NCBI GenBank assembly: GCA_018865545.1
Contig: GCA_018865545.1_3633.1
From: a phage
DNA length: 64,000 bases
Reading direction: 5' to 3' (one strand)
In this document: positions 34 to 9,725 of the stretch, piece after piece
Layout: every line of letters begins with the position of its first letter
Numbering within the stretch: position 1 is the first letter of the stretch
Position numbers and translations under genes: made by a program
The notes under the pieces: model-generated
Told to the model about the DNA's origin: nothing
The model's input: the letters and a program-made list of their open reading frames with translations, nothing else
Database searches by the model: none

Positions 34-468
34 TTACTCTTCTGGTGTATCCCAATCGAGATGACTATGGAGAAACTTCCTCACGTACTCCCTTGCATCC
101 GTTTCTTGTGTGTGGTCATCTGCCCACATTTTAGCCACATTCCCAGCCACTTCGTAGAGTTCCCTCTCAAAATCTGTGAGTCCTGGGAGAATATTTACCA
201 AGAGTTTTTCACTCTCTGATATATTTTGTGGGTCAAGTGTCATGCTGGGATCAATTAATGTTTTCCAACCAGACCCAAAAAATTTCTGTATTTCAAGAGA
301 TTTCCTTGTGCAACTTACAAAATATTTTGTGGTATCTTGTCTAAGCGACCCAAAAATAAATTTACCACCGTTCCAACTCTTCCATGATATATCTATGGCA
401 CACCCTAGAGACAGGAAGTGAATATCCACTAACATGTCGAAAACTTTTAATTTATTTTGCGTGTTCAT
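34..468 (-). CDS. hypothetical protein
   Basis: 144-aa ORF, no recognisable motif. Confidence 0.35.
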   Translation of the reverse strand: MNTQNKLKVFDMLVDIHFLSLGCAIDISWKSWNGGKFIFGSLRQDTTKYFVSCTRKSLEIQKFFGSGWKTLIDPSMTLDPQNISESEKLLVNILPGLTDFERELYEVAGNVAKMWADDHTQETDAREYVRKFLHSHLDWDTPEE

Positions 469-1888
469 CTAAATTTACAGCCCTTCCGAAAGGTGGTACA
501 AATTTATTATTTCCGCGACCACAAATAACCCAAAGAATATCCCATTTGCGTCCCCAATCTTTTTTCTTGTGTCTTAAATCCTCTATATATCCGTCTGTAA
601 AAATAATAACGTCTTTTGCATCAAAAATGTTATTTTCAATATACTCAAAAGCCGATGCTGCAAGTGTCCCACCCGTATAATTTACTTTATAATCAAGCAT
701 TTCCTTGATATTATCATGTGTATAAACTTTAACCTCTCCGACTTTTGTTGACCAACAGAACAATGTCACGCGAAAAACGCGGTAAAGCTGGCATAATCCT
801 ACAATTTCTCCGAAGATTTTGTCTAAATTCGCCTTCGAAATTGATCCAGACACATCGAAGCCAATAACTATATCTATAGTATTATCGTACTCCCTTCCTG
901 GTAAAACAATATGCTGTTTTTTTCCAATAGCTCCATACTGCCGAAGTGCCTGTGTCATAGATCCAGACCTACGAGATGGTTTCCTGTATGTCAGGTTAGA
1001 CTTGATCCGAGAAAGCATACGCTGTTTGATTATCTGAAGATAATTTATGTGTGGTTTACGCATTCTTGCAATAACGTCACGCACCTCTTTCGGCCCCTCT
1101 CCTCCCGCTGCTTCCATCGCGGCCTCGATAAGACCAGATGACCACGACATATTATCATCTTTTTCTGCTTGGCTTGGCACTGGGTGAGGATCTTCATATC
1201 CTAGGATATTGCTGTCTTGATCATAATCACCTATGTGTGTGCCCATAGGTTTACCAACAGACGGTTGGCCTTTGTTTATGAGACTGTAAATCTCCTCCGC
1301 TGTCTTACCGTGGAAATTAAAATCACAGTAGCAATAAGCCATAAACCCAAACTCTTTACCTTTGTCAAAGGTTGTCTGTTTCCCCATTGGGAAGAAACAC
1401 ATCTGGCTGGAGCGTGGCCCAAGATCAGACACCACTAAATCCGTGTTAATATAATGATCTGCTGCTGTGTTGTAGGTTTTAGAATCAAATGCTTTTCCAC
1501 GGGATAAATGATCGTTAGTAATATGACGTAGCTCGTGCATAAGAATAACAACAACCTCTTTGGGTGTTTTCTTACGATAAAATACGTTCACATAGTCTTT
1601 ATAGTCATCTTTTTCTTGTTGTGTCATTGTGGGGTGATTATCCACACGCTCAAAAACCTTCTTCTTCCTTTCTTCAGGCATACCCATAATAAACTCAGGG
1701 TTGAAGTAGAGGTTTTTGTGATCAGTCGCTGCTGTTGGCAACCATTTCCAGTTAGCAACTAAGGGTAGAGAACTTAACAAAGTCCCGTAAAATGGTCTGT
1801 ACTTTAAAAGAGCTATTCGTGCCGATTGGATAACTTTTACAGCATCCTTCTCTAACTTGGCAATCATTTCATATTCGTCTTTTTGCAT
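452..1888 (-). CDS. VWA-domain protein with N-terminal HExxH metallopeptidase-like domain (MoxR-partner type)
   Basis: HELRH motif; C-terminal MIDAS-like GFDVSGS and FTDG motifs of the von Willebrand A fold. Confidence 0.7.
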   Translation of the reverse strand: MQKDEYEMIAKLEKDAVKVIQSARIALLKYRPFYGTLLSSLPLVANWKWLPTAATDHKNLYFNPEFIMGMPEERKKKVFERVDNHPTMTQQEKDDYKDYVNVFYRKKTPKEVVVILMHELRHITNDHLSRGKAFDSKTYNTAADHYINTDLVVSDLGPRSSQMCFFPMGKQTTFDKGKEFGFMAYCYCDFNFHGKTAEEIYSLINKGQPSVGKPMGTHIGDYDQDSNILGYEDPHPVPSQAEKDDNMSWSSGLIEAAMEAAGGEGPKEVRDVIARMRKPHINYLQIIKQRMLSRIKSNLTYRKPSRRSGSMTQALRQYGAIGKKQHIVLPGREYDNTIDIVIGFDVSGSISKANLDKIFGEIVGLCQLYRVFRVTLFCWSTKVGEVKVYTHDNIKEMLDYKVNYTGGTLAASAFEYIENNIFDAKDVIIFTDGYIEDLRHKKKDWGRKWDILWVICGRGNNKFVPPFGRAVNLDEHAK

Positions 1889-1899
1889 AATTATGCTCC

Positions 1900-1932
1900 A
1901 TACAAAAATAGGCTATCTTTCGACAGCCTATT
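1900..1932 (-). terminator. rho-independent terminator
   Basis: 8-bp stem AATAGGCT/AGCCTATT with 10-nt loop, U-rich tract on minus strand; between stop of 1940..2203 and start of 452..1888. Confidence 0.45.
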
Positions 1933-1939
1933 ATACTTG

Positions 1940-2203
1940 TTATTTTTTACTTGTAAATAATTCTATGGTATCAAGCGGCATAAAATTATTACCGCCAGTT
2001 AATCTGGCTCCCCATACCGGAACTTGTCCTCCAGTTGGTTGGTGTGGGAACATAAATAATACTATAGCCTCTACAGAAGTTATAACGTTTCTGGCATTTT
2101 TATAACGAACCCTATCACCAACTTTAAAATTTGGTTTCTTTCCAGATTCAATCATCTGGGCTTCTTGATCGGTAGCTGGCCTTCCAAGAATCTCTTCAAA
2201 CAT
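1940..2203 (-). CDS. hypothetical protein
   Basis: 87-aa ORF in operon-like arrangement. Confidence 0.35.
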   Translation of the reverse strand: MFEEILGRPATDQEAQMIESGKKPNFKVGDRVRYKNARNVITSVEAIVLFMFPHQPTGGQVPVWGARLTGGNNFMPLDTIELFTSKK

Positions 2204-2204
2204 A

Positions 2205-2393
2205 TTATTTTACCTCTTTATTACCGACATTCCACCAACTTACAGCAGTAGGCTCACTCAGAGCCTGTGGCCCAGATGTTCCACATTTCTGGCAGTAAAT
2301 GTAGTGAAATATTGTTTGACCAGAGCGTGATTGTTTAAGCAGAAGTGCATCATTTTTACAAAACGGACACGGTTTTGGTAGAGAATCTTTCAT
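2205..2393 (-). CDS. Lar-like restriction-alleviation zinc-finger protein
   Basis: 62 aa; CPFC...CQKCG cysteine pairs and SWWN motif resembling the Lar family. Confidence 0.5.
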   Translation of the reverse strand: MKDSLPKPCPFCKNDALLLKQSRSGQTIFHYIYCQKCGTSGPQALSEPTAVSWWNVGNKEVK

Positions 2394-3208
2394 TAAACCA
2401 CCTTGTTCAGCATAGCTGTAATTTTTGGTAAACTCATTTTCGTATTGATCATGAGTTGTGTTAATGCTGTTTCCATCTTTTCAGAAACAATAATGAAGTT
2501 GTCTTTTGCAAACCCAAGATCTAAATCCATAATGAGAATAGGTTTTGGTGTTTTTGTTAACTTCTCCCCTGTTAGAGAACAGGTGTTTCTTGAATATTTA
2601 GCCTTAAATTGTGCATAAGTAACGCTAACATTCATACCTGCTTCTGCAAATGTTTTACAGTAGTTTGCGTATGCAAGTGCAATTTCAACATCGTCAGGAA
2701 GAGATTTTTCTTTCATCTCTTCAACCTGCTCATCAATAATTACGTTCTCTGTCTCTTTCATATCTGTTTCCGTAGGTATGTATTTAAGTTTTAACTTTTC
2801 CAAGTGATCCTTTGACATATTTAACATCATTCCTTGGACGATATCCATGTCGAGTGGATCTACAATCGTTAGAGCTTTCTTTTTGTCTACAAGAAAATCT
2901 TTTAACTGGTTTGCTCTCTTACCGACTACACAAACGTTTCCACGAACATACCCTTTTTTGTCATCTATTCGTTCAACAGACGGGTAGAGGGGGTCATTAG
3001 GTGTCGCAGAAAAAGGTAGGCCTGTGTAATCACAAACACCTTTCCCAAGTAATCCGTTGCCCATCATAAACCAGTCATCTTCTGTCAGATTGAACTCTAT
3101 ACCTCTCGCTTTGGTATTCCTCTTTTTGAAAAAGAGTCGTGTTTTGAGATACCTTATCTCTTTGGTTGTAAACTCTTCATTCCAGTTCATACAGAATATC
3201 TCTGTCAC
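2393..3208 (-). CDS. hypothetical protein with degenerate HNH-like motif
   Basis: 271 aa; PSVERIDDKKGYVRGNV segment resembles nuclease-associated DNA-binding motifs; acidic C-terminal half. Confidence 0.35.
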   Translation of the reverse strand: MTEIFCMNWNEEFTTKEIRYLKTRLFFKKRNTKARGIEFNLTEDDWFMMGNGLLGKGVCDYTGLPFSATPNDPLYPSVERIDDKKGYVRGNVCVVGKRANQLKDFLVDKKKALTIVDPLDMDIVQGMMLNMSKDHLEKLKLKYIPTETDMKETENVIIDEQVEEMKEKSLPDDVEIALAYANYCKTFAEAGMNVSVTYAQFKAKYSRNTCSLTGEKLTKTPKPILIMDLDLGFAKDNFIIVSEKMETALTQLMINTKMSLPKITAMLNKVV

Positions 3209-3254
3209 TTAACTTGTGTTCGTAGTATCTCACAAATTTCCAGTTTGTCAAGTA

Positions 3255-3283
3255 TTGACTTTGATTTTTTAGTTATGTACATT
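3255..3283 (+). promoter_or_regulatory. candidate sigma70-type promoter
   Basis: TTGACT, 17-nt spacer, TACATT; in the divergent intergenic region upstream of ATG 3320. Confidence 0.25.
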
Positions 3284-3319
3284 CCTCATAACCAATGAAA
3301 ATATTTTTGGAGTTTGACC

Positions 3320-4174
3320 ATGGCAAAGATACCTGACGAAAACATTTCTTCTTATTTTGATGACTACCTGCATCACACAAAATCTATGAAAATAAATTTT
3401 AATGTATTCCGTGAAGCCATTATAAGGGAAGTTGAAAGTCGCCACCATGAACCAAACCCTTTAATAGAACTCATAAAACATGCTGTGCTTATGTGTTTTG
3501 ATACTCTGGATAGGAAATGTTACTGGAAATATTATGTTGAAGCTGACGAGCGTGCTTACATGGCAAGCGTAAACTTAACGCATGAGTTTTCAAGCTATGA
3601 TATTACTTGTGGGCAAATAACAATTTCTTTCCAAGGCTTTAATTATGGAATGTGTTTAGCAGGATCGTTGTCTGCACGAACACAAAAATTCCTGTCTGTT
3701 TTGTCCCAATTGGGGCATTGGGATGGTAATATGTTTTCCATAAAGGCTTCCTATGTCAGAACAAACCCAGATATTCTCCACATCAGGGAGATTAACTCCA
3801 GTTTTGGATCCTTTTCTCTGGCGGGTTGTTATGGAATGTTTTACCAAACAAAGATGTATGATTATGCAGGTCATGCTGCAATTAAGATAGCCAACACGCC
3901 AAACGTAGAGAATAAGAAATCGCACTACTACTTGGTGTGTAATACCCAAGAAGTAATGTACCATCGTGTTGTAGAAAAGGAGCTAAAAGAGCTTATCTTG
4001 GGGGAGATCCCTACCCAAGAGGAACGCTCAATGATAGAAATGGCTGGGTACAAAGGAGAATTTTTTCTTGATTCTCTTGTAGATTTTGATAATATTGGTA
4101 TAAAACCCTTTAACATGCAAGAGGCATATGAATGGCACAATCGAAGTCTGTCCCCAGTAACATGCAAGATTTAA
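3320..4174 (+). CDS. hypothetical protein
   Basis: ORF from ATG 3320 (track start 3314 is TTG); no motif recognised. Confidence 0.45.
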   Translation: MAKIPDENISSYFDDYLHHTKSMKINFNVFREAIIREVESRHHEPNPLIELIKHAVLMCFDTLDRKCYWKYYVEADERAYMASVNLTHEFSSYDITCGQITISFQGFNYGMCLAGSLSARTQKFLSVLSQLGHWDGNMFSIKASYVRTNPDILHIREINSSFGSFSLAGCYGMFYQTKMYDYAGHAAIKIANTPNVENKKSHYYLVCNTQEVMYHRVVEKELKELILGEIPTQEERSMIEMAGYKGEFFLDSLVDFDNIGIKPFNMQEAYEWHNRSLSPVTCKI

Positions 4175-4629
4175 GACCCCATCAGGAGTTGGCTTTAGCT
4201 ATAAAATTGGCCTCTGAAAACCATCTTAAGCAAAAAGATCGTGGTGGAATGCCCTACATTCTTCACCCATTAAGGGTGATGCATGAACTTGGTAATGATG
4301 ACTTACAGCTAATGGCAATCGGTGTCCTTCACGATATCCTTGAGGATACTAAAGTTACAGCTTACGATTTGGTAATGTTAGGGTTCACTAACAGAGTAAA
4401 AGATGCAGTTCTTCTGCTAACAAAGAAACAGAGCCTGACTGAAGAAGAGTACATTGAGGGCATCTGTACTAATTATGATGCGATTCGTGTAAAACTCGCT
4501 GATTTAAAAGACAATATGGACGTAAAACGTCTTAAATCCTTATCAGATAAGGATTTGGCAAGGTTAAAGAAATACCATGAAATGCATCTTAAACTTGCTG
4601 ATGCAAGAAAAAGATTCGAGGGGAAATAA
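4132..4629 (+). CDS. HD-domain hydrolase, small alarmone hydrolase (Rel/SpoT HD)-like
   Basis: HPLRV...LMAIGVLHDILEDT matches the HD signature of (p)ppGpp hydrolase domains; 165 aa. Confidence 0.55.
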   Translation: MAQSKSVPSNMQDLRPHQELALAIKLASENHLKQKDRGGMPYILHPLRVMHELGNDDLQLMAIGVLHDILEDTKVTAYDLVMLGFTNRVKDAVLLLTKKQSLTEEEYIEGICTNYDAIRVKLADLKDNMDVKRLKSLSDKDLARLKKYHEMHLKLADARKRFEGK

Positions 4630-4844
4630 TGAATGTTTATCAACCACATCCATTTGATCCAAAGAACAAAGCGGTGATCCACAGAGAATGGGTGGAGAGA
4701 AGGAAAACAGACTGTCCTGTTAAAGGTACAGAGGATTACAATAGGTTTTACATAGCAAAGTTTGTTGAGTATACTTTTATTAACAAAAAGGGTAAGAAAG
4801 TGCATGTTGCAGAATACCCTTTATGGATAAAATGGGAGGATTAG
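4629..4844 (+). CDS. hypothetical protein
   Basis: 71-aa ORF tightly packed with neighbours. Confidence 0.4.
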   Translation: MNVYQPHPFDPKNKAVIHREWVERRKTDCPVKGTEDYNRFYIAKFVEYTFINKKGKKVHVAEYPLWIKWED

Positions 4845-4845
4845 G

Positions 4846-5040
4846 ATGTATTGTAAACAACAATATACCCACAAAGGAACCATTAGGAAAAAGCAGTTCG
4901 GTTGGGTATGGGAAGACAAGTTAAAAGATGAAGGTGCTTATTGGGTAGCATTTGAAAGCAAGGCAAAATACCGTAAGAAAGACGGTAAACGAGTGGGTGG
5001 TGATGAATATCTTGATTTAGAATCTGTTAAGGAGTTATAA
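4846..5040 (+). CDS. hypothetical protein
   Basis: 64-aa ORF. Confidence 0.4.
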   Translation: MYCKQQYTHKGTIRKKQFGWVWEDKLKDEGAYWVAFESKAKYRKKDGKRVGGDEYLDLESVKEL

Positions 5041-5041
5041 A

Positions 5042-5398
5042 ATGGCACAGTGGAAACATCGACTTGATTTACGTGATATCTGGAAAGGTAATCCCGTAGA
5101 AGGTAAGGTAGAGCCTTGGGCAGATGATAATATTCACCTGTTTGTGGACATGCTTGTAAAAAGAGTAAAACGACTTTTACCAAAGCAAACTGATGAAGAG
5201 AATGCTGACTTCGATGGATGGTTGTATGATATTCTTGAAGAAATGCAGCATATTCTCACATATGAAGAATACTTGGAAATCTGTAGCAAAGAAGATAACC
5301 CCAACCTTATCGTGAGTCCTCTACAGCAGTTCAATCTGGCTTTGAACGAGTTCTACGACTGGTGTGATGAGAACAGAGTTTGGGTGGATAAGTGGTAA
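5042..5398 (+). CDS. hypothetical protein
   Basis: 118-aa ORF. Confidence 0.45.
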   Translation: MAQWKHRLDLRDIWKGNPVEGKVEPWADDNIHLFVDMLVKRVKRLLPKQTDEENADFDGWLYDILEEMQHILTYEEYLEICSKEDNPNLIVSPLQQFNLALNEFYDWCDENRVWVDKW

Positions 5399-5634
5399 AA
5401 CCTCTTGATTTTTCAGAGAGAGCGGAGTATTTAAAAACCGTTGTTAGAGCGAGGATGACACGACGACAATGGTTTTTAGTTTTTGGTGCAGAAAGAGTAG
5501 ACAATTTTTCTGCCAAAGACCTTGCATCAAGCATTATGAATCTGTATGCTGATATTGAATCAGCAGATATAGACAGTATCATTGAAAGTTATCTTGAGCA
5601 GAAGAACGATTTAAGGAACGAGACGAATGTCTAG
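5392..5634 (+). CDS. hypothetical protein
   Basis: 80-aa ORF overlapping neighbours by a few nt. Confidence 0.4.
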   Translation: MVKPLDFSERAEYLKTVVRARMTRRQWFLVFGAERVDNFSAKDLASSIMNLYADIESADIDSIIESYLEQKNDLRNETNV

Positions 5635-6835
5635 TAGAAATATTTTTGAAGATCATCGTGTTACACTCCGTGATATTCCAAGCCTCATGAAATTTTGTAA
5701 GAAGGCAAACAAAGCACTTATGATGTTTGGTGGTGCTGGGCTTGGTAAGAGTCAAGTCATGAAGCAAGTTGCCAATGAGATGTTTGGTGAACGAGATGAT
5801 AATCTCGTTGATTTTCGTCTTGCGGATAAAGATCCGACAGACGTAGTCGGTGTACAGATTCCTGTAACAGACGACAATGGAAAAACACGTACAGTCTATG
5901 CGCTACCAGATTTCTGGCCAGAAGACCCAGATTGGGAAGGTATTATTTTCCTTGATGAACTTTTACATGCTGATAACTACTTACAGAAAGTAGCTTTCCA
6001 AATTGTTTTGGATCATAAGATTGGTAAGTACACCTTTCCAAAAGGTGCAGTTTTTGCAGCGGCAGGGAACCGTCCTGGTGATGGTACGGCAGTGACCATG
6101 ATGGAAGCTCCTTTGGCTAACCGTTTTATTGTTGTGGAACTTGATTACGATGCCTCTGTGTGGATGCAGGATTATGCGTTGCGTAAAAATGTGCATCCAT
6201 CAGTAATTGGCTTTATCCAGGCCAATCCTGATAAACTGGAAAACTTCGAGGCCATGTATGAGATTAACAGTCCTGCATATGCCACACCACGAACTTGGGT
6301 TACTGCAAGTGATATTCTGTATGCGTATGAGGATGGTGATCTTACTTCCCGTCTTGCAATGGCTGCTTTGCAAGGGTGTATTGGTGGGCCATTAATGAAA
6401 GAGTTATGGTATTACCATACTCGCGTTGCTGATATGGTCCCCATTGAGAAAGTAATGGATGGTTCAATTAAGGAACACACTGGCTCTGATAGCTCTGATG
6501 TATTGTGGACGCTAGGATCACAAGGTTGCATCTGGCTACGTAAGGCTATGAAGAATACCAACTACACAGATGATCAGATTATTGACTTCTCAGCCAATTT
6601 CTTGCAATATCTGTATGATAACTTTGGTAAAGATGATGCTCATTCCAACCGCGATTTTGTATCATCTGTCTTCATGACGTTTATTAATGACAGTTCCACA
6701 GGGAAGGGTATTTTGTTAGATGGCCTTCGTGACAGACTGCCAGCGAAGTTACTTAAGAAGTATCCTGTCGTCATGCAGATTATTACTGAATATCACAAGA
6801 ACTTTGCAAAAGATGTAGATGCAATTTTAAATTAA
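5627..6835 (+). CDS. MoxR-like AAA+ ATPase
   Basis: Walker A GGAGLGKS, Walker B IIFLDEL, sensor AAGN. Confidence 0.75.
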   Translation: MSSRNIFEDHRVTLRDIPSLMKFCKKANKALMMFGGAGLGKSQVMKQVANEMFGERDDNLVDFRLADKDPTDVVGVQIPVTDDNGKTRTVYALPDFWPEDPDWEGIIFLDELLHADNYLQKVAFQIVLDHKIGKYTFPKGAVFAAAGNRPGDGTAVTMMEAPLANRFIVVELDYDASVWMQDYALRKNVHPSVIGFIQANPDKLENFEAMYEINSPAYATPRTWVTASDILYAYEDGDLTSRLAMAALQGCIGGPLMKELWYYHTRVADMVPIEKVMDGSIKEHTGSDSSDVLWTLGSQGCIWLRKAMKNTNYTDDQIIDFSANFLQYLYDNFGKDDAHSNRDFVSSVFMTFINDSSTGKGILLDGLRDRLPAKLLKKYPVVMQIITEYHKNFAKDVDAILN

Positions 6836-7647: not shown

Positions 7648-8161
7648 GTATAAAGTTGGTTGCTTAATAGAGGCAGCACTTAAAAGGGATGTTAATGTGA
7701 TAGCTCATGGTTGTAATACATTTTGCACCATGGGGTCTGGAATTGCTAAAGAAATAAAGAATACATTCCCAAAAATGTATGCTGAAGATTTAAAGACAGA
7801 GAAAGGTGATCGAACAAAACTGGGCAGTTATACTTGGGTTGTCATGAACGAAGGTAAACTGGCTGGTTTTAATCTGTACACACAATACGGTTATAATGGG
7901 CGTAGAATGGGTGTGAGGGATCTGAATTATAACGCCCTTTACGATTCCTTAGCAGCAATGCGAGATTGTTTGCAAAGGCACACAGATGGCTTTATGTCTG
8001 ATTATAAGATCGGGCTGCCAAAAATAGGTGCTGGACTAGCAGGTGGGGATTGGAAAATCATAGAAACTATGATAGAATCTGTTCTCCATGATTGTGATGT
8101 GACAATTTATGTCTTAAATGAAGAGGAGATCCCCGATGGCAAAAGAGAACATGCATCCTGA
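7640..8161 (+). CDS. macro-domain (ADP-ribose binding/hydrolase-like) protein
   Basis: VNVIAHGCNTFCTMGSGIAKEI and GLPKIGAGLAGGDW resemble the two glycine-rich macro-domain loops; start moved to ATG 7640. Confidence 0.5.
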   Translation: MLKYKVGCLIEAALKRDVNVIAHGCNTFCTMGSGIAKEIKNTFPKMYAEDLKTEKGDRTKLGSYTWVVMNEGKLAGFNLYTQYGYNGRRMGVRDLNYNALYDSLAAMRDCLQRHTDGFMSDYKIGLPKIGAGLAGGDWKIIETMIESVLHDCDVTIYVLNEEEIPDGKREHAS

Positions 8162-8321
8162 TATTGCTTACGATAAAATTGCGGAAGCAATTAAAAGTAT
8201 TGATCCAAAAATTGTAGATGTGTTAGATCGTAAAGATGCTATGAGCGCAATTTATGACGCTTGCTATGAAGTTCTGTGGCAAGATGGTATGGAAGATATC
8301 GACGAGGTGGAGGGCCAATGA
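8136..8321 (+). CDS. hypothetical protein
   Basis: start at ATG 8136 preceded by GAGGAG. Confidence 0.35.
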   Translation: MAKENMHPDIAYDKIAEAIKSIDPKIVDVLDRKDAMSAIYDACYEVLWQDGMEDIDEVEGQ

Positions 8322-8704
8322 TGGAAAGTAAATCTGTAACAGGCGTATCTAAAGATACTTATGTCTGTGGGAAGAGATACGCTGGTATCCTGTTTGGTGC
8401 TGAACCCTATTTCGGTTTTGGTTATACAAAAGATGTGCGTTGTATCTGCGGATACTTAGCAGATGACCTCAAAAAGCGTGGATTTAGCGGTTCTAATATC
8501 AGGACTTCTGTTGTCGAAAGTCTGATTATGCACGATGGGGAAATCTATGCTATTACGATGAACAGCGCCTATCGCTTAGGTAGCCTCCAATTACAACATT
8601 TTATCTCCAGTCCTGTATGGAGTCAGGAGATCACGAAACTTCTCGCCCAAGCAACTCTTGGTGTGACTTTTATTAATAAGGAAGATAGTAATGCAAGCAA
8701 CTAA
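8318..8704 (+). CDS. hypothetical protein
   Basis: start at ATG 8318 preceded by GGAGG. Confidence 0.4.
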   Translation: MMESKSVTGVSKDTYVCGKRYAGILFGAEPYFGFGYTKDVRCICGYLADDLKKRGFSGSNIRTSVVESLIMHDGEIYAITMNSAYRLGSLQLQHFISSPVWSQEITKLLAQATLGVTFINKEDSNASN

Positions 8705-9725
8705 GTACCCAAGCACTAGTCAATTTCGCAATGTTATCCGAGCGGTTAATGACCGTCTGACTTATGATGGTCGTGATGAGAATGGCAATATAAAGCGTAA
8801 GGTTGCCTCTCCAGACCAATATCTCATTCCTTATGTAGGAACAGTTAAAATTCACGGGACTAATTGCCGTGTAGTCTTTAATTCTGAAAATGAGGTTGTA
8901 TACCAGTCCAAAGAACGCGTTTTGTCTCTGGAAGAAGATAATTATGGGTTTATGGCCTTTATGGTTGAAAAAGACCCTAAAGGCCTGTTGGAGCAAGTCA
9001 AACAGATCTGCGAAGATCGTGGTATTGAATTTAAGTTCCCAGTAGAAATCGCTGGGGAATTTGCAGGGAAAGGTATCCAGAAAGGTGTTGCGGTATCTGA
9101 AATCATGCCTTTCTTTACTATTTTCCGTGTGGCAGTAGGAAAAGAGAATGACCATCGGAAATGGTTAGCTTTAAACGATATTCTTGGCATTGGATTACCA
9201 GAACAACGTATTTATAATATTTTAACTTTTGGTAAGTGGGAACTGGATATTCCTTTTAACATGCCAGAGACAGTGCAATCAGAAATTGCACAGATTACCG
9301 AAGGTGTGGAAAAAGAGTGTCCAGTAGGTAAATATTTTGGCGTATCTGGTGTTGGTGAGGGTGTGGTATGGACACCTAAAGATCGCCACTTGGCACATGT
9401 TTCTGCACTTTGGTTTAAAGTGAAAGGGCAAAAACATTCTGTTTCTAAAGTGAAAACCCTGGCTGCTGTTGATCCTGTGAAACTGCAATCTATCAAAGAT
9501 TTTGTGGAGTATGCAGTTACTGAGAACCGTTTACGACAAGGGTTGCAAGAAATTGGATTGGACATCGCATCTCTGGGGGCATTTATCGCATGGGTTAACC
9601 GCGATATCAACAAAGAAGAAGCAGATGTGTTAGAAGCCAATTCTCTTTCTATGAAAGACGTGGCAAAATTTACAACAAATAAAGCCCGTAGTTGGTACAT
9701 GGAACAACTTAACGAGGTGTCTTGA
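8691..9725 (+). CDS. RNA ligase (Rnl2-like nucleotidyltransferase)
   Basis: motif I VKIHGTN (lysine nucleotidyltransferase), EGVVW (motif IV-like), FKVKG (motif V-like). Confidence 0.7.
   Translation: MQATKYPSTSQFRNVIRAVNDRLTYDGRDENGNIKRKVASPDQYLIPYVGTVKIHGTNCRVVFNSENEVVYQSKERVLSLEEDNYGFMAFMVEKDPKGLLEQVKQICEDRGIEFKFPVEIAGEFAGKGIQKGVAVSEIMPFFTIFRVAVGKENDHRKWLALNDILGIGLPEQRIYNILTFGKWELDIPFNMPETVQSEIAQITEGVEKECPVGKYFGVSGVGEGVVWTPKDRHLAHVSALWFKVKGQKHSVSKVKTLAAVDPVKLQSIKDFVEYAVTENRLRQGLQEIGLDIASLGAFIAWVNRDINKEEADVLEANSLSMKDVAKFTTNKARSWYMEQLNEVS

What the first reader, a model, noticed from the sequence alone, without database searches (positions are those of the whole stretch)
452..6835. MoxR-type AAA+ ATPase and its VWA/metallopeptidase-like partner encoded divergently 4 kb apart
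MoxR ATPases normally work with an adjacent VWA protein. Here the ATPase (5627-6835, +) and the HExxH plus MIDAS-containing VWA protein (452-1888, -) lie on opposite strands, separated by Lar-like, HD and unknown genes. The pair is split rather than operonic, and its role in a lytic phage is unknown.
Basis: partly seen in the sequence, partly recalled or inferred. Interest (0 to 1): 0.5.

Follow-up and report, generated by a model that had tools for sequence, protein, structure and literature searches.

The report
Split phage MoxR ATPase–VWA peptidase pair
The phage carries a motor ATPase and its adaptor protein (a zinc-peptidase-like domain fused to a metal-dependent binding domain); they form a widespread but still uncharacterised phage gene pair (N4 gp24/gp25) that an old inversion has placed on opposite strands here.

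Summary
ORF 5627-6835(+) is a divergent MoxR-clade AAA+ ATPase. ORF 452-1888(-) is a Pfam DUF2201_N (HExxH zincin-like) + DUF2201 (VWA with full MIDAS) protein. They lie on opposite strands, 3.7 kb apart.

The window is about 95% identical to Escherichia phage Av-05 (Vequintavirinae). The pair is not new. It belongs to the same families as coliphage N4 gp24/gp25, two of the 14 core genes of N4-like phages, function unknown. It also occurs in jumbo phages, many uncultured phages and bacterial two-gene cassettes. The DUF2201 family has about 14,400 cluster representatives at E<=1e-30.

Outside the rV5/PVP-SE1/Av-05 lineages the ATPase gene sits just upstream of the DUF2201 gene on the same strand: 106 of 109 informative viral loci and 71 of 74 bacterial loci. 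CR3-like Vequintavirinae keep HD..ATPase-VWA in one direction. A single inversion of the HD..ATPase block explains the split.

The two genes now flank conserved back-to-back sigma70-type promoters, reported for rV5, so co-expression is likely. All catalytic motifs are kept in 113/113 viral pairs.

Best reading: a two-component MoxR/VWA remodeller carrying a zincin peptidase, with unknown target. This is a new member of a known kind and of moderate interest.

The parts
452..1888 (-). DUF2201-family protein, 478 aa. The N-terminal part (aa 1 to about 280) is a zincin-like domain. A basic linker carrying the conserved R-P-S-R-R motif spans aa about 296-330. The C-terminal part (aa about 331-478) is a VWA domain with a complete MIDAS. 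Counterpart of N4 gp25 and rV5 gp012.
1523..1537 (-). HExxH motif (H118-E119-L-R-H122). H127 and D144 follow and are candidate third zinc ligands.
   Evidence: H122 and D144 are invariant; H118, E119 and H127 are >=90% conserved in 40 sequences. The motifs are kept in 113/113 viral homologues. Inteins are inserted at exactly these two motifs in P0231 and P0256.
842..856 (-). MIDAS motif D345-V-S347-G-S349. T408 and D432 complete the site.
   Evidence: Invariant columns. Kept in 182/182 aligned homologues. The profile matches integrin I-domains over this stretch.
5627..6835 (+). MoxR-clade AAA+ ATPase, 402 aa. The AAA+ module spans aa about 1-270 and includes a helix-2 beta-hairpin insert (aa 76-92) and a pre-sensor-1 hairpin (aa 131-136). 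A helical C-terminal extension (aa about 270-402) is specific to the Vequintavirinae-type proteins. Counterpart of N4 gp24 and rV5 gp004.
   Evidence: PHROG 1297, E 4e-105. The profile matches midasin AAA domains at E 1e-26, and also CbbQ and NorQ. AF2 model pLDDT 88. Foldseek top hits are CbbQ2 6l1q and NorQ 9qh*, E about 3e-8. N4 gp24 matches the family profile at E 6e-74.
5729..5752 (+). Walker A motif G35-GAGLGK41-S42.
   Evidence: G38, G40, K41 and S42 are invariant in 38 sequences. Kept in 181/182 pairs.
5954..5959 (+). Walker B motif D110-E111.
   Evidence: D110 is invariant and E111 is >=90% conserved. Kept in 182/182 pairs.
3209..3319 (.). Divergent intergenic region with back-to-back sigma70-like promoters. 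On the (-) strand, TTGACA-16-GATACT (3251 to 3224, preceded by TG) leads into the Srd-like..DUF2201 unit. On the (+) strand, TTGACT-17-TACATT (3255-3283) leads into the HD..ATPase unit.
   Evidence: Promoter scan. TTGACA-N17-(G/C)ATAAT is conserved upstream of the Srd-like gene in eight related loci besides the window. Bidirectional promoters are reported at the equivalent rV5 gene 10/11 junction (PMC3606486). The overall number of promoter-like sites in the region is not above shuffles, so position and conservation carry the argument.
2393..3208 (-). Srd-like protein, the first gene of the leftward unit that ends with the DUF2201 gene. It is context, not part of the pair.
   Evidence: PHROG 3118, with weaker Srd/anti-sigma PHROGs. 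rV5 gp011 is annotated 'Srd-like'. It is linked upstream of the DUF2201 gene in all rV5-like lineages.
4132..4629 (+). HD-type phosphohydrolase. It serves as a marker of the inverted block: it travels with the ATPase gene both in this window and in CR3-like phages.
   Evidence: PHROG 990. Synteny comparison.

Best explanation
The two ORFs encode the two subunits of one machine, a MoxR-clade AAA+ motor and its VWA adaptor. They belong to the same families as coliphage N4 gp24/gp25.

Inferred mechanism, by analogy with NorQ-NorD, CbbQ-CbbO and midasin:
1. The ATPase forms a hexamer.
2. The hexamer docks the VWA domain of the DUF2201 protein at its pore through the conserved helix-2 insert.
3. 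The MIDAS site holds an acidic residue of a target protein.
4. ATP hydrolysis pulls or twists the adaptor.
5. The N-terminal HExxH zincin domain, fused to the VWA domain, then cuts or otherwise processes the held target.
Overall this would be a two-piece, ATP-driven, MIDAS-targeted remodeller/protease.

The target is unknown. Because the cassette is also common in free-living bacteria, the target is probably a conserved bacterial protein or the adaptor's own cargo.

The opposite-strand arrangement results from an ancient inversion of the HD..ATPase block in the ancestor of the rV5/PVP-SE1/Av-05-type Vequintavirinae. Both genes are now read outward from conserved back-to-back host-type promoters, so they are probably made together early in infection.

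Shown: family membership, intact motifs, co-occurrence, ancestral adjacency, the inversion, and promoter conservation.
Inferred: physical interaction, proteolysis, timing and target.
For: Families:
- Pfam and PHROG matches.
- The ATPase profile matches midasin, CbbQ and NorQ.
- Foldseek top hits are CbbQ2 and NorQ, including NorQ-NorD complexes.
- N4 gp24/gp25 match the family profiles at E 6e-74 and 9e-104.

Partnership:
- In 215 loci seeded with the DUF2201 protein, the ATPase gene, wherever found (197 loci), lies on the 5' side of the DUF2201 gene.
- It is on the same strand in 106/109 informative non-Vequintavirinae viral loci and 71/74 informative bacterial loci. In 65 of the bacterial loci the gap is at most 300 nt.
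- In the reciprocal test, 69 of 80 ATPase-seeded loci hold a DUF2201 gene within 10 kb.
- One lineage keeps both genes at least 36 kb apart (L019/L232).
- Pairwise divergences of the two proteins correlate with r 0.978 over 160 loci, and 0.965 within Vequintavirinae.

Activity:
- HExxH, H127, D144, MIDAS, Walker A/B, sensor 1 and two arginines are kept in 113/113 viral pairs.
- Inteins sit in the two peptidase motifs of two homologues.

Inversion:
- CR3-like phages have HD(+)..ATPase(+)-VWA(+).
- Split lineages have ATPase(-) HD(-) | Srd(+)..VWA(+).

Expression:
- Back-to-back promoters are conserved across genera and reported for rV5.
- N4 gp24/25 are middle genes.

Mechanism template: the NorQD cryo-EM 'finger-in-pore' model (PMC13036017).
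Against:
- No obvious long 'finger' insertion is seen in the compact VWA domain of the model. The basic RPSRR linker (aa about 296-330, low pLDDT) is only a candidate.
- Proteolytic activity has never been shown for any DUF2201 protein. A few bacterial homologues have a degenerate HExxH (KQALH, HDALH), so the domain can work without catalysis in some lineages.
- Correlated divergence is expected for any two vertically inherited genes of one genome, so it does not prove contact.
- The promoter evidence is by consensus match and conservation only.
- The ATPase does not reach any Pfam MoxR-type model on its own.
Confidence: 0.6

Rival explanations
1. The pair is a classical MoxR/VWA maturation chaperone, like NorQD, CbbQO, CoxDE or the chelatases. 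It would insert a metal into, or reactivate, a specific enzyme of the phage or host. In this reading the HExxH domain serves as a metal-holding or target-binding module rather than as a protease.
For: - The closest solved relatives of the ATPase are CbbQ and NorQ.
- A sub-threshold VWA_CoxE match.
- All experimentally understood MoxR/VWA pairs are remodellers or metal inserters.
- Some bacterial homologues lack the catalytic Glu or His.
- Nucleotide-metabolism genes lie nearby in N4 and in other phage loci.
Against: - The full HExxH with its Glu is kept in 113/113 viral and 67/69 bacterial proteins. This is typical of a working hydrolase rather than a mere metal holder.
- The motif region resembles M48, SprT-like and selecase peptidases.
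- No conserved client enzyme gene accompanies the cassette across lineages.
Confidence: 0.25
2. The pair assists virion (tail or head) assembly. The model is the MoxR-type ATPase and VWA protein of Acidianus two-tailed virus, which are implicated in tail development.
For: - The ATV ORF892 VWA protein appears among structural matches.
- The ATV system is cited as a MoxR-vWA example.
- The neighbouring small ORFs 34-468 and 1940-2203 fall in PHROGs labelled 'tail protein'.
- A second structural module lies near the gp24/25 homologues in N4-like roseophages.
Against: - The genes sit in early/middle-type units driven by sigma70-like promoters, away from the structural module.
- The main text of the rV5 paper does not name them among the virion proteins it identified.
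- The same cassette is common in bacterial chromosomes with no phage context.
- PHROG labels in this region are demonstrably unreliable ('HNH endonuclease').
Confidence: 0.08
3. After the split, the two genes became functionally independent in this lineage. Alternatively, the database labels are right and the 478-aa protein is an HNH endonuclease or DNA-repair protein unrelated to the ATPase.
For: - Opposite strands, 3.7 kb apart, in different transcription units.
- RefSeq/PHROG name 'HNH endonuclease'. One GenBank record calls a homologue 'DNA repair ATPase'.
Against: - There is no HNH or nuclease domain. Pfam gives DUF2201_N + DUF2201 only.
- Both genes are retained with all motifs in every split lineage examined, even when at least 36 kb apart.
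- Their divergences stay tightly correlated within Vequintavirinae (r 0.965).
Confidence: 0.05

Closest known systems
Coliphage N4 gp24 (AAA ATPase) / gp25 (vWFA protein), core genes of N4-like phages (Schitoviridae)
   Same: - Same two protein families: profile E 6e-74 and 9e-104, direct BLASTP 4e-28 and 2.5e-14.
- Same motifs.
- Non-structural genes.
- Function unknown.
   Different: - In N4 the genes are adjacent and co-directional (gp24 then gp25, 167 nt apart). They are transcribed as middle genes by the phage RNA polymerase II.
- Here they are divergent, 3.7 kb apart, behind host-type promoters.
- The Vequintavirinae proteins are larger. The ATPase has a C-terminal helical extension of about 130 aa. 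The peptidase domain has two insertions.
NorQ-NorD and CbbQ-CbbO (MoxR AAA+ / VWA remodellers of nitric oxide reductase and Rubisco)
   Same: - Closest solved structures to the ATPase model.
- The VWA domain has a MIDAS.
- Two-gene cassette with the ATPase gene first.
- These systems supply the mechanistic template: VWA at the pore, MIDAS on the target.
   Different: - Sequence identity is only 13-19%.
- NorD and CbbO have no HExxH domain and are much larger adaptors with a distinct N-terminal domain and a long VWA 'finger'.
- Their client enzymes are encoded nearby. No client is evident here.
Bacterial AAA_5 + DUF2201_N/DUF2201 two-gene cassettes (for example Deinococcus hopiensis and sulfur-oxidising Gammaproteobacteria)
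   Same: - Same domain architecture and gene order, usually with overlapping or abutting ORFs.
- Uncharacterised.
   Different: - 20-27% identity to the phage proteins.
- Shorter proteins.
- Many gammaproteobacterial cassettes carry a conserved third gene of about 370 aa downstream, not seen in the phage.
Midasin (Rea1/Mdn1)
   Same: - Best sequence-profile match of the ATPase is to the midasin AAA domains.
- The midasin MIDAS domain is among the VWA fold matches.
- A MIDAS domain that docks on the AAA ring.
   Different: - Midasin is a single giant polypeptide with six fused AAA modules, acting in eukaryotic ribosome biogenesis.
- It has no peptidase domain.
AAA+ zinc proteases such as FtsH
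   Same: The concept of an AAA+ motor working with an HExxH zinc peptidase.
   Different: - FtsH is a single chain of the classical AAA clade with an M41 peptidase and no VWA domain.
- Here the motor and the peptidase are separate proteins coupled (by inference) through a VWA domain.
- This is a resemblance of idea only; it was not tested.

Membership tests
MoxR-clade AAA+ ATPases | AAA+ core with Walker A, Walker B, sensor 1 and arginine residues intact | tested here: met
   G38/G40/K41/S42, D110/E111, N148, R166 and R222 are invariant or nearly so and are kept across 182 homologues.
MoxR-clade AAA+ ATPases | Helix-2 insert and pre-sensor-1 beta-hairpin in the AAA+ fold | tested here: met
   The AF2 model (pLDDT 88) shows a beta-hairpin at aa 76-92 between strand 2 and the Walker B strand, and short paired strands at aa 131-136 before the sensor-1 strand. 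This rests on a predicted model only.
MoxR-clade AAA+ ATPases | Closest sequence and structure relatives are MoxR-clade members | tested here: met
   Profile against PDB: midasin E 1e-26, also CbbQ and NorQ. Foldseek: CbbQ2 and NorQ on top, E about 3e-8.
MoxR-clade AAA+ ATPases | Match to a curated MoxR-type Pfam model (AAA_3/AAA_5/bpMoxR) above threshold | tested here: not met
   The window protein reaches only bpMoxR at 16.5 bits against a cut-off of 27. Homologues at 30-35% identity do carry AAA_5/AAA_3, so membership is by transitive homology.
MoxR-clade AAA+ ATPases | Genomic coupling to a VWA-domain protein | tested here: met
   Family-wide adjacency. In this window the partner is 3.7 kb away on the other strand.
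MoxR-clade AAA+ ATPases | Hexamer formation and ATP hydrolysis | not testable with these tools
   Needs biochemistry.
VWA domain with MIDAS | Alpha/beta Rossmann-like VWA fold | tested here: met
VWA domain with MIDAS | DxSxS ... T ... D metal-ion-dependent adhesion site | tested here: met
   D345, S347, S349, T408 and D432 are invariant.
Zincin metallopeptidases | HExxH motif on a helix plus a third zinc ligand | tested here: inconclusive
   HELRH lies within predicted helix 109-124. H127 and D144 are conserved candidates for the third ligand. Matches to M48, SprT-like and selecase around the motif are only sub-threshold. The geometry of the model was not inspected.
Zincin metallopeptidases | Proteolytic activity | not testable with these tools
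   No experimental report was found for any DUF2201 protein; a full-text search for 'DUF2201' gave only three incidental mentions.
N4 gp24/gp25-type phage pair | Both proteins homologous to N4 gp24 and gp25 | tested here: met
   hmmsearch E 6e-74 and 9e-104. BLASTP 4e-28 and 2.5e-14.
N4 gp24/gp25-type phage pair | Adjacent, co-directional genes with the ATPase first | tested here: not met
   Divergent and 3.7 kb apart here. This is the derived state of one Vequintavirinae branch.
Cobaltochelatase CobS/CobT, RavA/ViaA, CoxD/CoxE | Match to the family-specific Pfam models | tested here: not met
   No CobS/CobT or RavA/ViaA model was hit. VWA_CoxE scored only 20.2 bits against a cut-off of 26.4.
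Known anti-phage defence systems (PADLOC) and MoxR-vWA ternary conflict systems | Match to a defence-system model, or presence of a VMAP/iSTAND/FtsH third component | tested here: not met
   No PADLOC match for either protein. No such third gene is present in the window.
HNH endonuclease (the database label) | HNH/His-Me finger domain | tested here: not met
   No HNH-type Pfam match. The whole protein is covered by DUF2201_N + DUF2201.

The most novel reading that the evidence does not exclude
The pair is a previously unrecognised type of two-component AAA+ protease. A MoxR motor would feed or position substrates for a MIDAS-targeted zincin. It is one of the very few non-structural modules shared by unrelated virulent phage groups: N4-like podophages, rV5-like myophages, jumbo phages, cyanophages and crAss-like viruses. 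It would act on a conserved bacterial protein during host takeover. Selection on the partnership is strong enough that both genes persist even when inverted or tens of kilobases apart.
Probability: 0.3. Interest if true: 0.65.

Novelty: new member of a known kind. Interest (0 to 1): 0.35.

Why it matters
N4 gp24/gp25 have been listed as core genes of unknown function since the N4-like phages were first compared. This analysis links them with the rV5-like 'MoxR ATPase', with proteins mislabelled 'HNH endonuclease', and with thousands of bacterial AAA_5/DUF2201 cassettes. That defines one large, motif-intact, uncharacterised machine.

The Vequintavirinae inversion is a natural experiment. The partnership survives loss of operon linkage, which argues that the two products need each other rather than merely being co-transcribed.

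If the zincin is active, this would add a new architecture to the ATP-dependent proteases and a new host-takeover (or self-maturation) step common to many virulent phages. If not, it is one more MoxR/VWA chaperone awaiting its client. In practice it also flags a widespread annotation error.

Tried and rejected
- Single-sequence searches of both proteins against PDB sequences gave nothing useful. Profiles were needed.
- The 40-sequence alignment was too diverse for locus finding. It was replaced by three narrower alignments.
- NCBIfam and PADLOC gave no family for either protein or for distant homologues. A defence or anti-defence assignment could therefore be neither supported nor excluded.
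- The two long DUF2201 hits (733 and 794 aa) were checked as possible ATPase-DUF2201 fusions, which would have been Rosetta-stone evidence. They are intein-containing proteins, not fusions.
- Bacterial neighbourhoods were searched for a conserved client gene. Only a clade-specific unknown third gene and ordinary local synteny (BepA-like and SoxYZ genes) were found.
- The CRISPRi-ART phage fitness study was checked. Phage SUSP1 has 138 coding sequences against more than 200 in rV5-like genomes, and the passages retrieved give no result for a gene of either family. I did not test SUSP1 for the pair.
- The main text of the rV5 paper does not name gp004 or gp012 among the proteins it discusses as detected in virions. 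The full mass-spectrometry table (Additional file 5) was not read.
- A megablast search for a cultured relative of the lineage with widely separated genes (L019) found none.
- tRNA scan of the window: none found.

Full report
**What is in the sequence.**
The first 8 kb of the window are 95% identical to Escherichia phage Av-05, a virulent myophage of the Vequintavirinae, genus Avunavirus.

- ORF 452-1888(-), 478 aa, matches Pfam DUF2201_N, 'putative metallopeptidase' (E 9e-20), and DUF2201, 'VWA-like' (E 6e-10). It also matches PHROG 1314 at E 2e-113.
- ORF 5627-6835(+), 402 aa, matches PHROG 1297, 'ATPase', at E 4e-105. In Pfam it reaches only a sub-threshold bpMoxR match.
- The genes are divergent with 3,738 nt between them.
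- Leftward from a 111-nt intergenic region lie an Srd-like gene (2393-3208), a Lar-like gene (2205-2393), a small ORF (1940-2203) and then the DUF2201 gene.
- Rightward lie an unknown gene (3314-4174), an HD phosphohydrolase (4132-4629), four small ORFs and then the ATPase gene. The last small ORF overlaps the ATPase start by 8 nt.

**Family assignment.**
I collected homologues of both proteins and aligned them.

- In the DUF2201 protein, H122, D144, D345, S347, G348, S349, G407, T408 and D432 are invariant. H118, E119 and H127 are at least 90% conserved. This gives an HExxH(x4)H motif plus a complete MIDAS.
- In the ATPase, the Walker A residues G38/G40/K41/S42, Walker B D110, sensor-1 N148, R166 and R222 are invariant. 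Walker B E111 is at least 90% conserved.
- A profile of the ATPase family matches the AAA domains of midasin (E 1e-26), and also CbbQ and NorQ.
- The AlphaFold model of the ATPase (pLDDT 88) has a helix-2 beta-hairpin insert and a pre-sensor-1 hairpin. Its best solved matches are the MoxR ATPases CbbQ2 and NorQ, including NorQ bound to the NorD VWA domain.
- The region around HExxH resembles M48, SprT-like and selecase peptidases only weakly.
- Neither protein matches a PADLOC defence model or an NCBIfam family.
- The label 'HNH endonuclease' carried by PHROG 1314 and copied into RefSeq for Av-05, rV5 gp012 and N4 gp25 has no support.

**Are the two genes partners?**

- tblastn finds the DUF2201 protein in 491 phage records and the ATPase in 824.
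- I fetched 215 loci around DUF2201 homologues: 135 viral contigs and 80 bacterial genomes. I located both genes with profile HMMs.
- Wherever it was found, the ATPase gene lies on the 5' side of the DUF2201 gene.
- Outside Vequintavirinae it is on the same strand in 106 of 109 informative viral loci and in 71 of 74 informative bacterial loci. In 65 of the bacterial loci the gap is at most 300 nt.
- In the reverse test, 69 of 80 viral loci seeded with the ATPase hold a DUF2201 gene within 10 kb.
- On one uncultured Vequintavirinae-like contig of 136 kb, the two genes are at least 36 kb apart, yet both are intact (L019 and L232).
- Pairwise divergences of the two proteins over 160 non-redundant loci correlate at r 0.978, and at 0.965 within Vequintavirinae. 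This shows co-inheritance without partner swapping. It does not by itself show contact.
- All catalytic motifs of both proteins are kept in 113 of 113 viral pairs.

**Why the genes are split here.**
- Among 24 Vequintavirinae-type loci, 19 have the divergent arrangement with gaps of 3.4-5.1 kb. These include Av-05, PVP-SE1, rV5 and relatives infecting Klebsiella and Erwinia.
- Four CR3/CR9-like loci keep ATPase-then-DUF2201 on one strand.
- Gene-by-gene comparison shows HD(+)..ATPase(+)-DUF2201(+) in the CR3-like phages. The split lineages show ATPase(-), HD(-), then Srd-like(+)..DUF2201(+).
- One inversion of the HD..ATPase block produces exactly this order. All outgroups are co-directional, so the split is the derived state.

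**Expression.**
- The intergenic region 3209-3319 holds two back-to-back sigma70-like promoters with adjoining -35 boxes (TGTCAA-gta-TTGACT).
- The count of promoter-like sites in the region as a whole is no higher than in shuffled sequence.
- However, TTGACA-N17-(G/C)ATAAT is conserved upstream of the Srd-like gene in eight related loci besides the window, which itself has TTGACA-N16-GATACT. A weaker outward-facing partner sits beside it (read by eye in the window and in one related locus, L009).
- The rV5 genome paper reports bidirectional promoters at the equivalent gene 10/11 junction. It defines transcription units 10-1-238-164 and 11-26, which contain the ATPase (gp004) and the DUF2201 gene (gp012) respectively.
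- The genes are therefore probably co-expressed from a shared control region by host RNA polymerase. This is an inference.

**What is already known.**
- N4 gp24 and gp25 are adjacent genes annotated 'AAA ATPase' and 'vWFA'. They belong to the same two families.
- They are two of only 14 core genes of N4-like phages. They are middle genes with no known function.
- Structural matches also occur in Bacillus phage PBS1, cyanophage S-TIM5, crAss-like viruses and others.
- The DUF2201 family has about 14,400 cluster representatives (clusters at 50% identity) at E<=1e-30.
- The full-text search for 'DUF2201' found only three incidental mentions, and none of the papers read here reports a functional test of a DUF2201 protein.
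- The 2026 NorQD cryo-EM work provides the general MoxR/VWA mechanism: a VWA 'finger' in the AAA+ pore contacting the helix-2 inserts, and MIDAS or the linker on the target.

**Most likely mechanism.**
I take the two proteins to form one machine. A MoxR hexamer engages the VWA domain of the adaptor. The MIDAS holds a target. The fused zincin domain processes it.

- The near-universal retention of the catalytic Glu and both His argues for real hydrolysis. So does the presence of inteins inserted precisely in the HExxH|xxxxH and A|CD motifs of two homologues.
- On the other side, no long VWA finger is visible in the model, and the low-confidence basic RPSRR linker is only a candidate. No DUF2201 protease activity has been reported. 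A few bacterial homologues have lost the motif.
- The chaperone or metal-insertion reading therefore remains a serious rival.
- A role in virion assembly, or functional uncoupling of the two genes, is unlikely.

**Verdict.**
The observation and its interpretation are correct. The thing itself is a lineage-specific rearrangement of a widespread, already catalogued but uncharacterised phage and bacterial gene pair. It is a new member of a known kind and of moderate interest. It is a good experimental target because orthologues exist in the tractable phages N4 and rV5.

Noticed in passing
window 452-1888(-); also RefSeq Av-05 YP_009111244, rV5 gp012, N4 gp25: PHROG 1314 is labelled 'HNH endonuclease', and this name has been copied into RefSeq for the DUF2201 proteins of several phages. 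Pfam shows only DUF2201_N + DUF2201 and no HNH domain. One GenBank homologue is called 'DNA repair ATPase', and an ATPase homologue is called 'ribosomal protein uS19'.
   Followed up: yes
L223 (rV5 NC_011041) 7756-9217: In the rV5 reference genome the DUF2201 gene is broken by a +1 frameshift near 9003/9005. It is annotated as two genes (gp012, gp013). Close relatives have one 485-aa ORF. This is either a sequencing error or a real disruption between the MIDAS Thr and Asp.
   Followed up: partly
proteins P0231 (794 aa) and P0256 (733 aa), metagenomic DUF2201 homologues: Both carry an insertion flanked by intein-like junctions, each placed exactly in one of the two most conserved peptidase motifs: HEVLH|C...HN|CVYEH, and WNMA|C...HN|CDYNIN next to the invariant Asp. 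In P0231 Pfam detects Hint and LAGLIDADG domains; in P0256 no intein domain is detected and the reading rests on the junctions alone. Inteins usually home to functionally critical sites.
   Followed up: partly
window 1907-1957 (-): An 11/12 sigma70-like promoter (TTTACA-16-TATAAT) overlaps a hairpin followed by a T-run, in the 51-nt gap just upstream of the DUF2201 start codon. It could be a terminator/attenuator or a secondary promoter that sets DUF2201 expression apart from the upstream genes.
   Followed up: no
window 2393-3208 (-) and related loci L008-L026, L019, L223: The Srd-like gene (rV5 gp011 type) stays within about 1 kb upstream of the DUF2201 gene in all rV5-like lineages. This holds even where the ATPase gene is at least 36 kb away. 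It is absent from the neighbourhood in CR3-like phages.
   Followed up: partly
window 5392-5634 (+): An 80-aa ORF overlaps the ATPase start codon by 8 nt, which suggests translational coupling. It has a 40%-identical counterpart in PVP-SE1. The ORF at the equivalent position in rV5 (gp005) carries the PHROG name 'ATPase' although it is only 89 aa long.
   Followed up: no
L142-L221 (gammaproteobacterial genomes): In 30 of 71 bacterial AAA_5/DUF2201 cassettes, a conserved, mostly helical gene of about 370 aa follows on the same strand; its counterpart in L222 has no Pfam match. It may be a third component or a client in that clade.
   Followed up: partly
L250, L252, L253, L259-L261 (IMG/VR contigs; three of them are 414-434 kb): A group of contigs, some of jumbo-phage size, has a good ATPase homologue but no DUF2201 gene within 5-10 kb downstream. 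The partner is either distant or replaced.
   Followed up: no
L019 and L232 (IMG/VR contig 3300045988_163358, 136,426 bp): This uncultured Vequintavirinae-like genome has both genes on the same strand, but about 98 kb apart on the contig (about 36 kb if the genome is circularly permuted). No cultured relative was found by megablast.
   Followed up: partly
window about 3.2 kb and about 34 kb: GC skew changes sign at both places, matching switches in coding strand. No tRNA genes occur anywhere in the 64-kb window.
   Followed up: no
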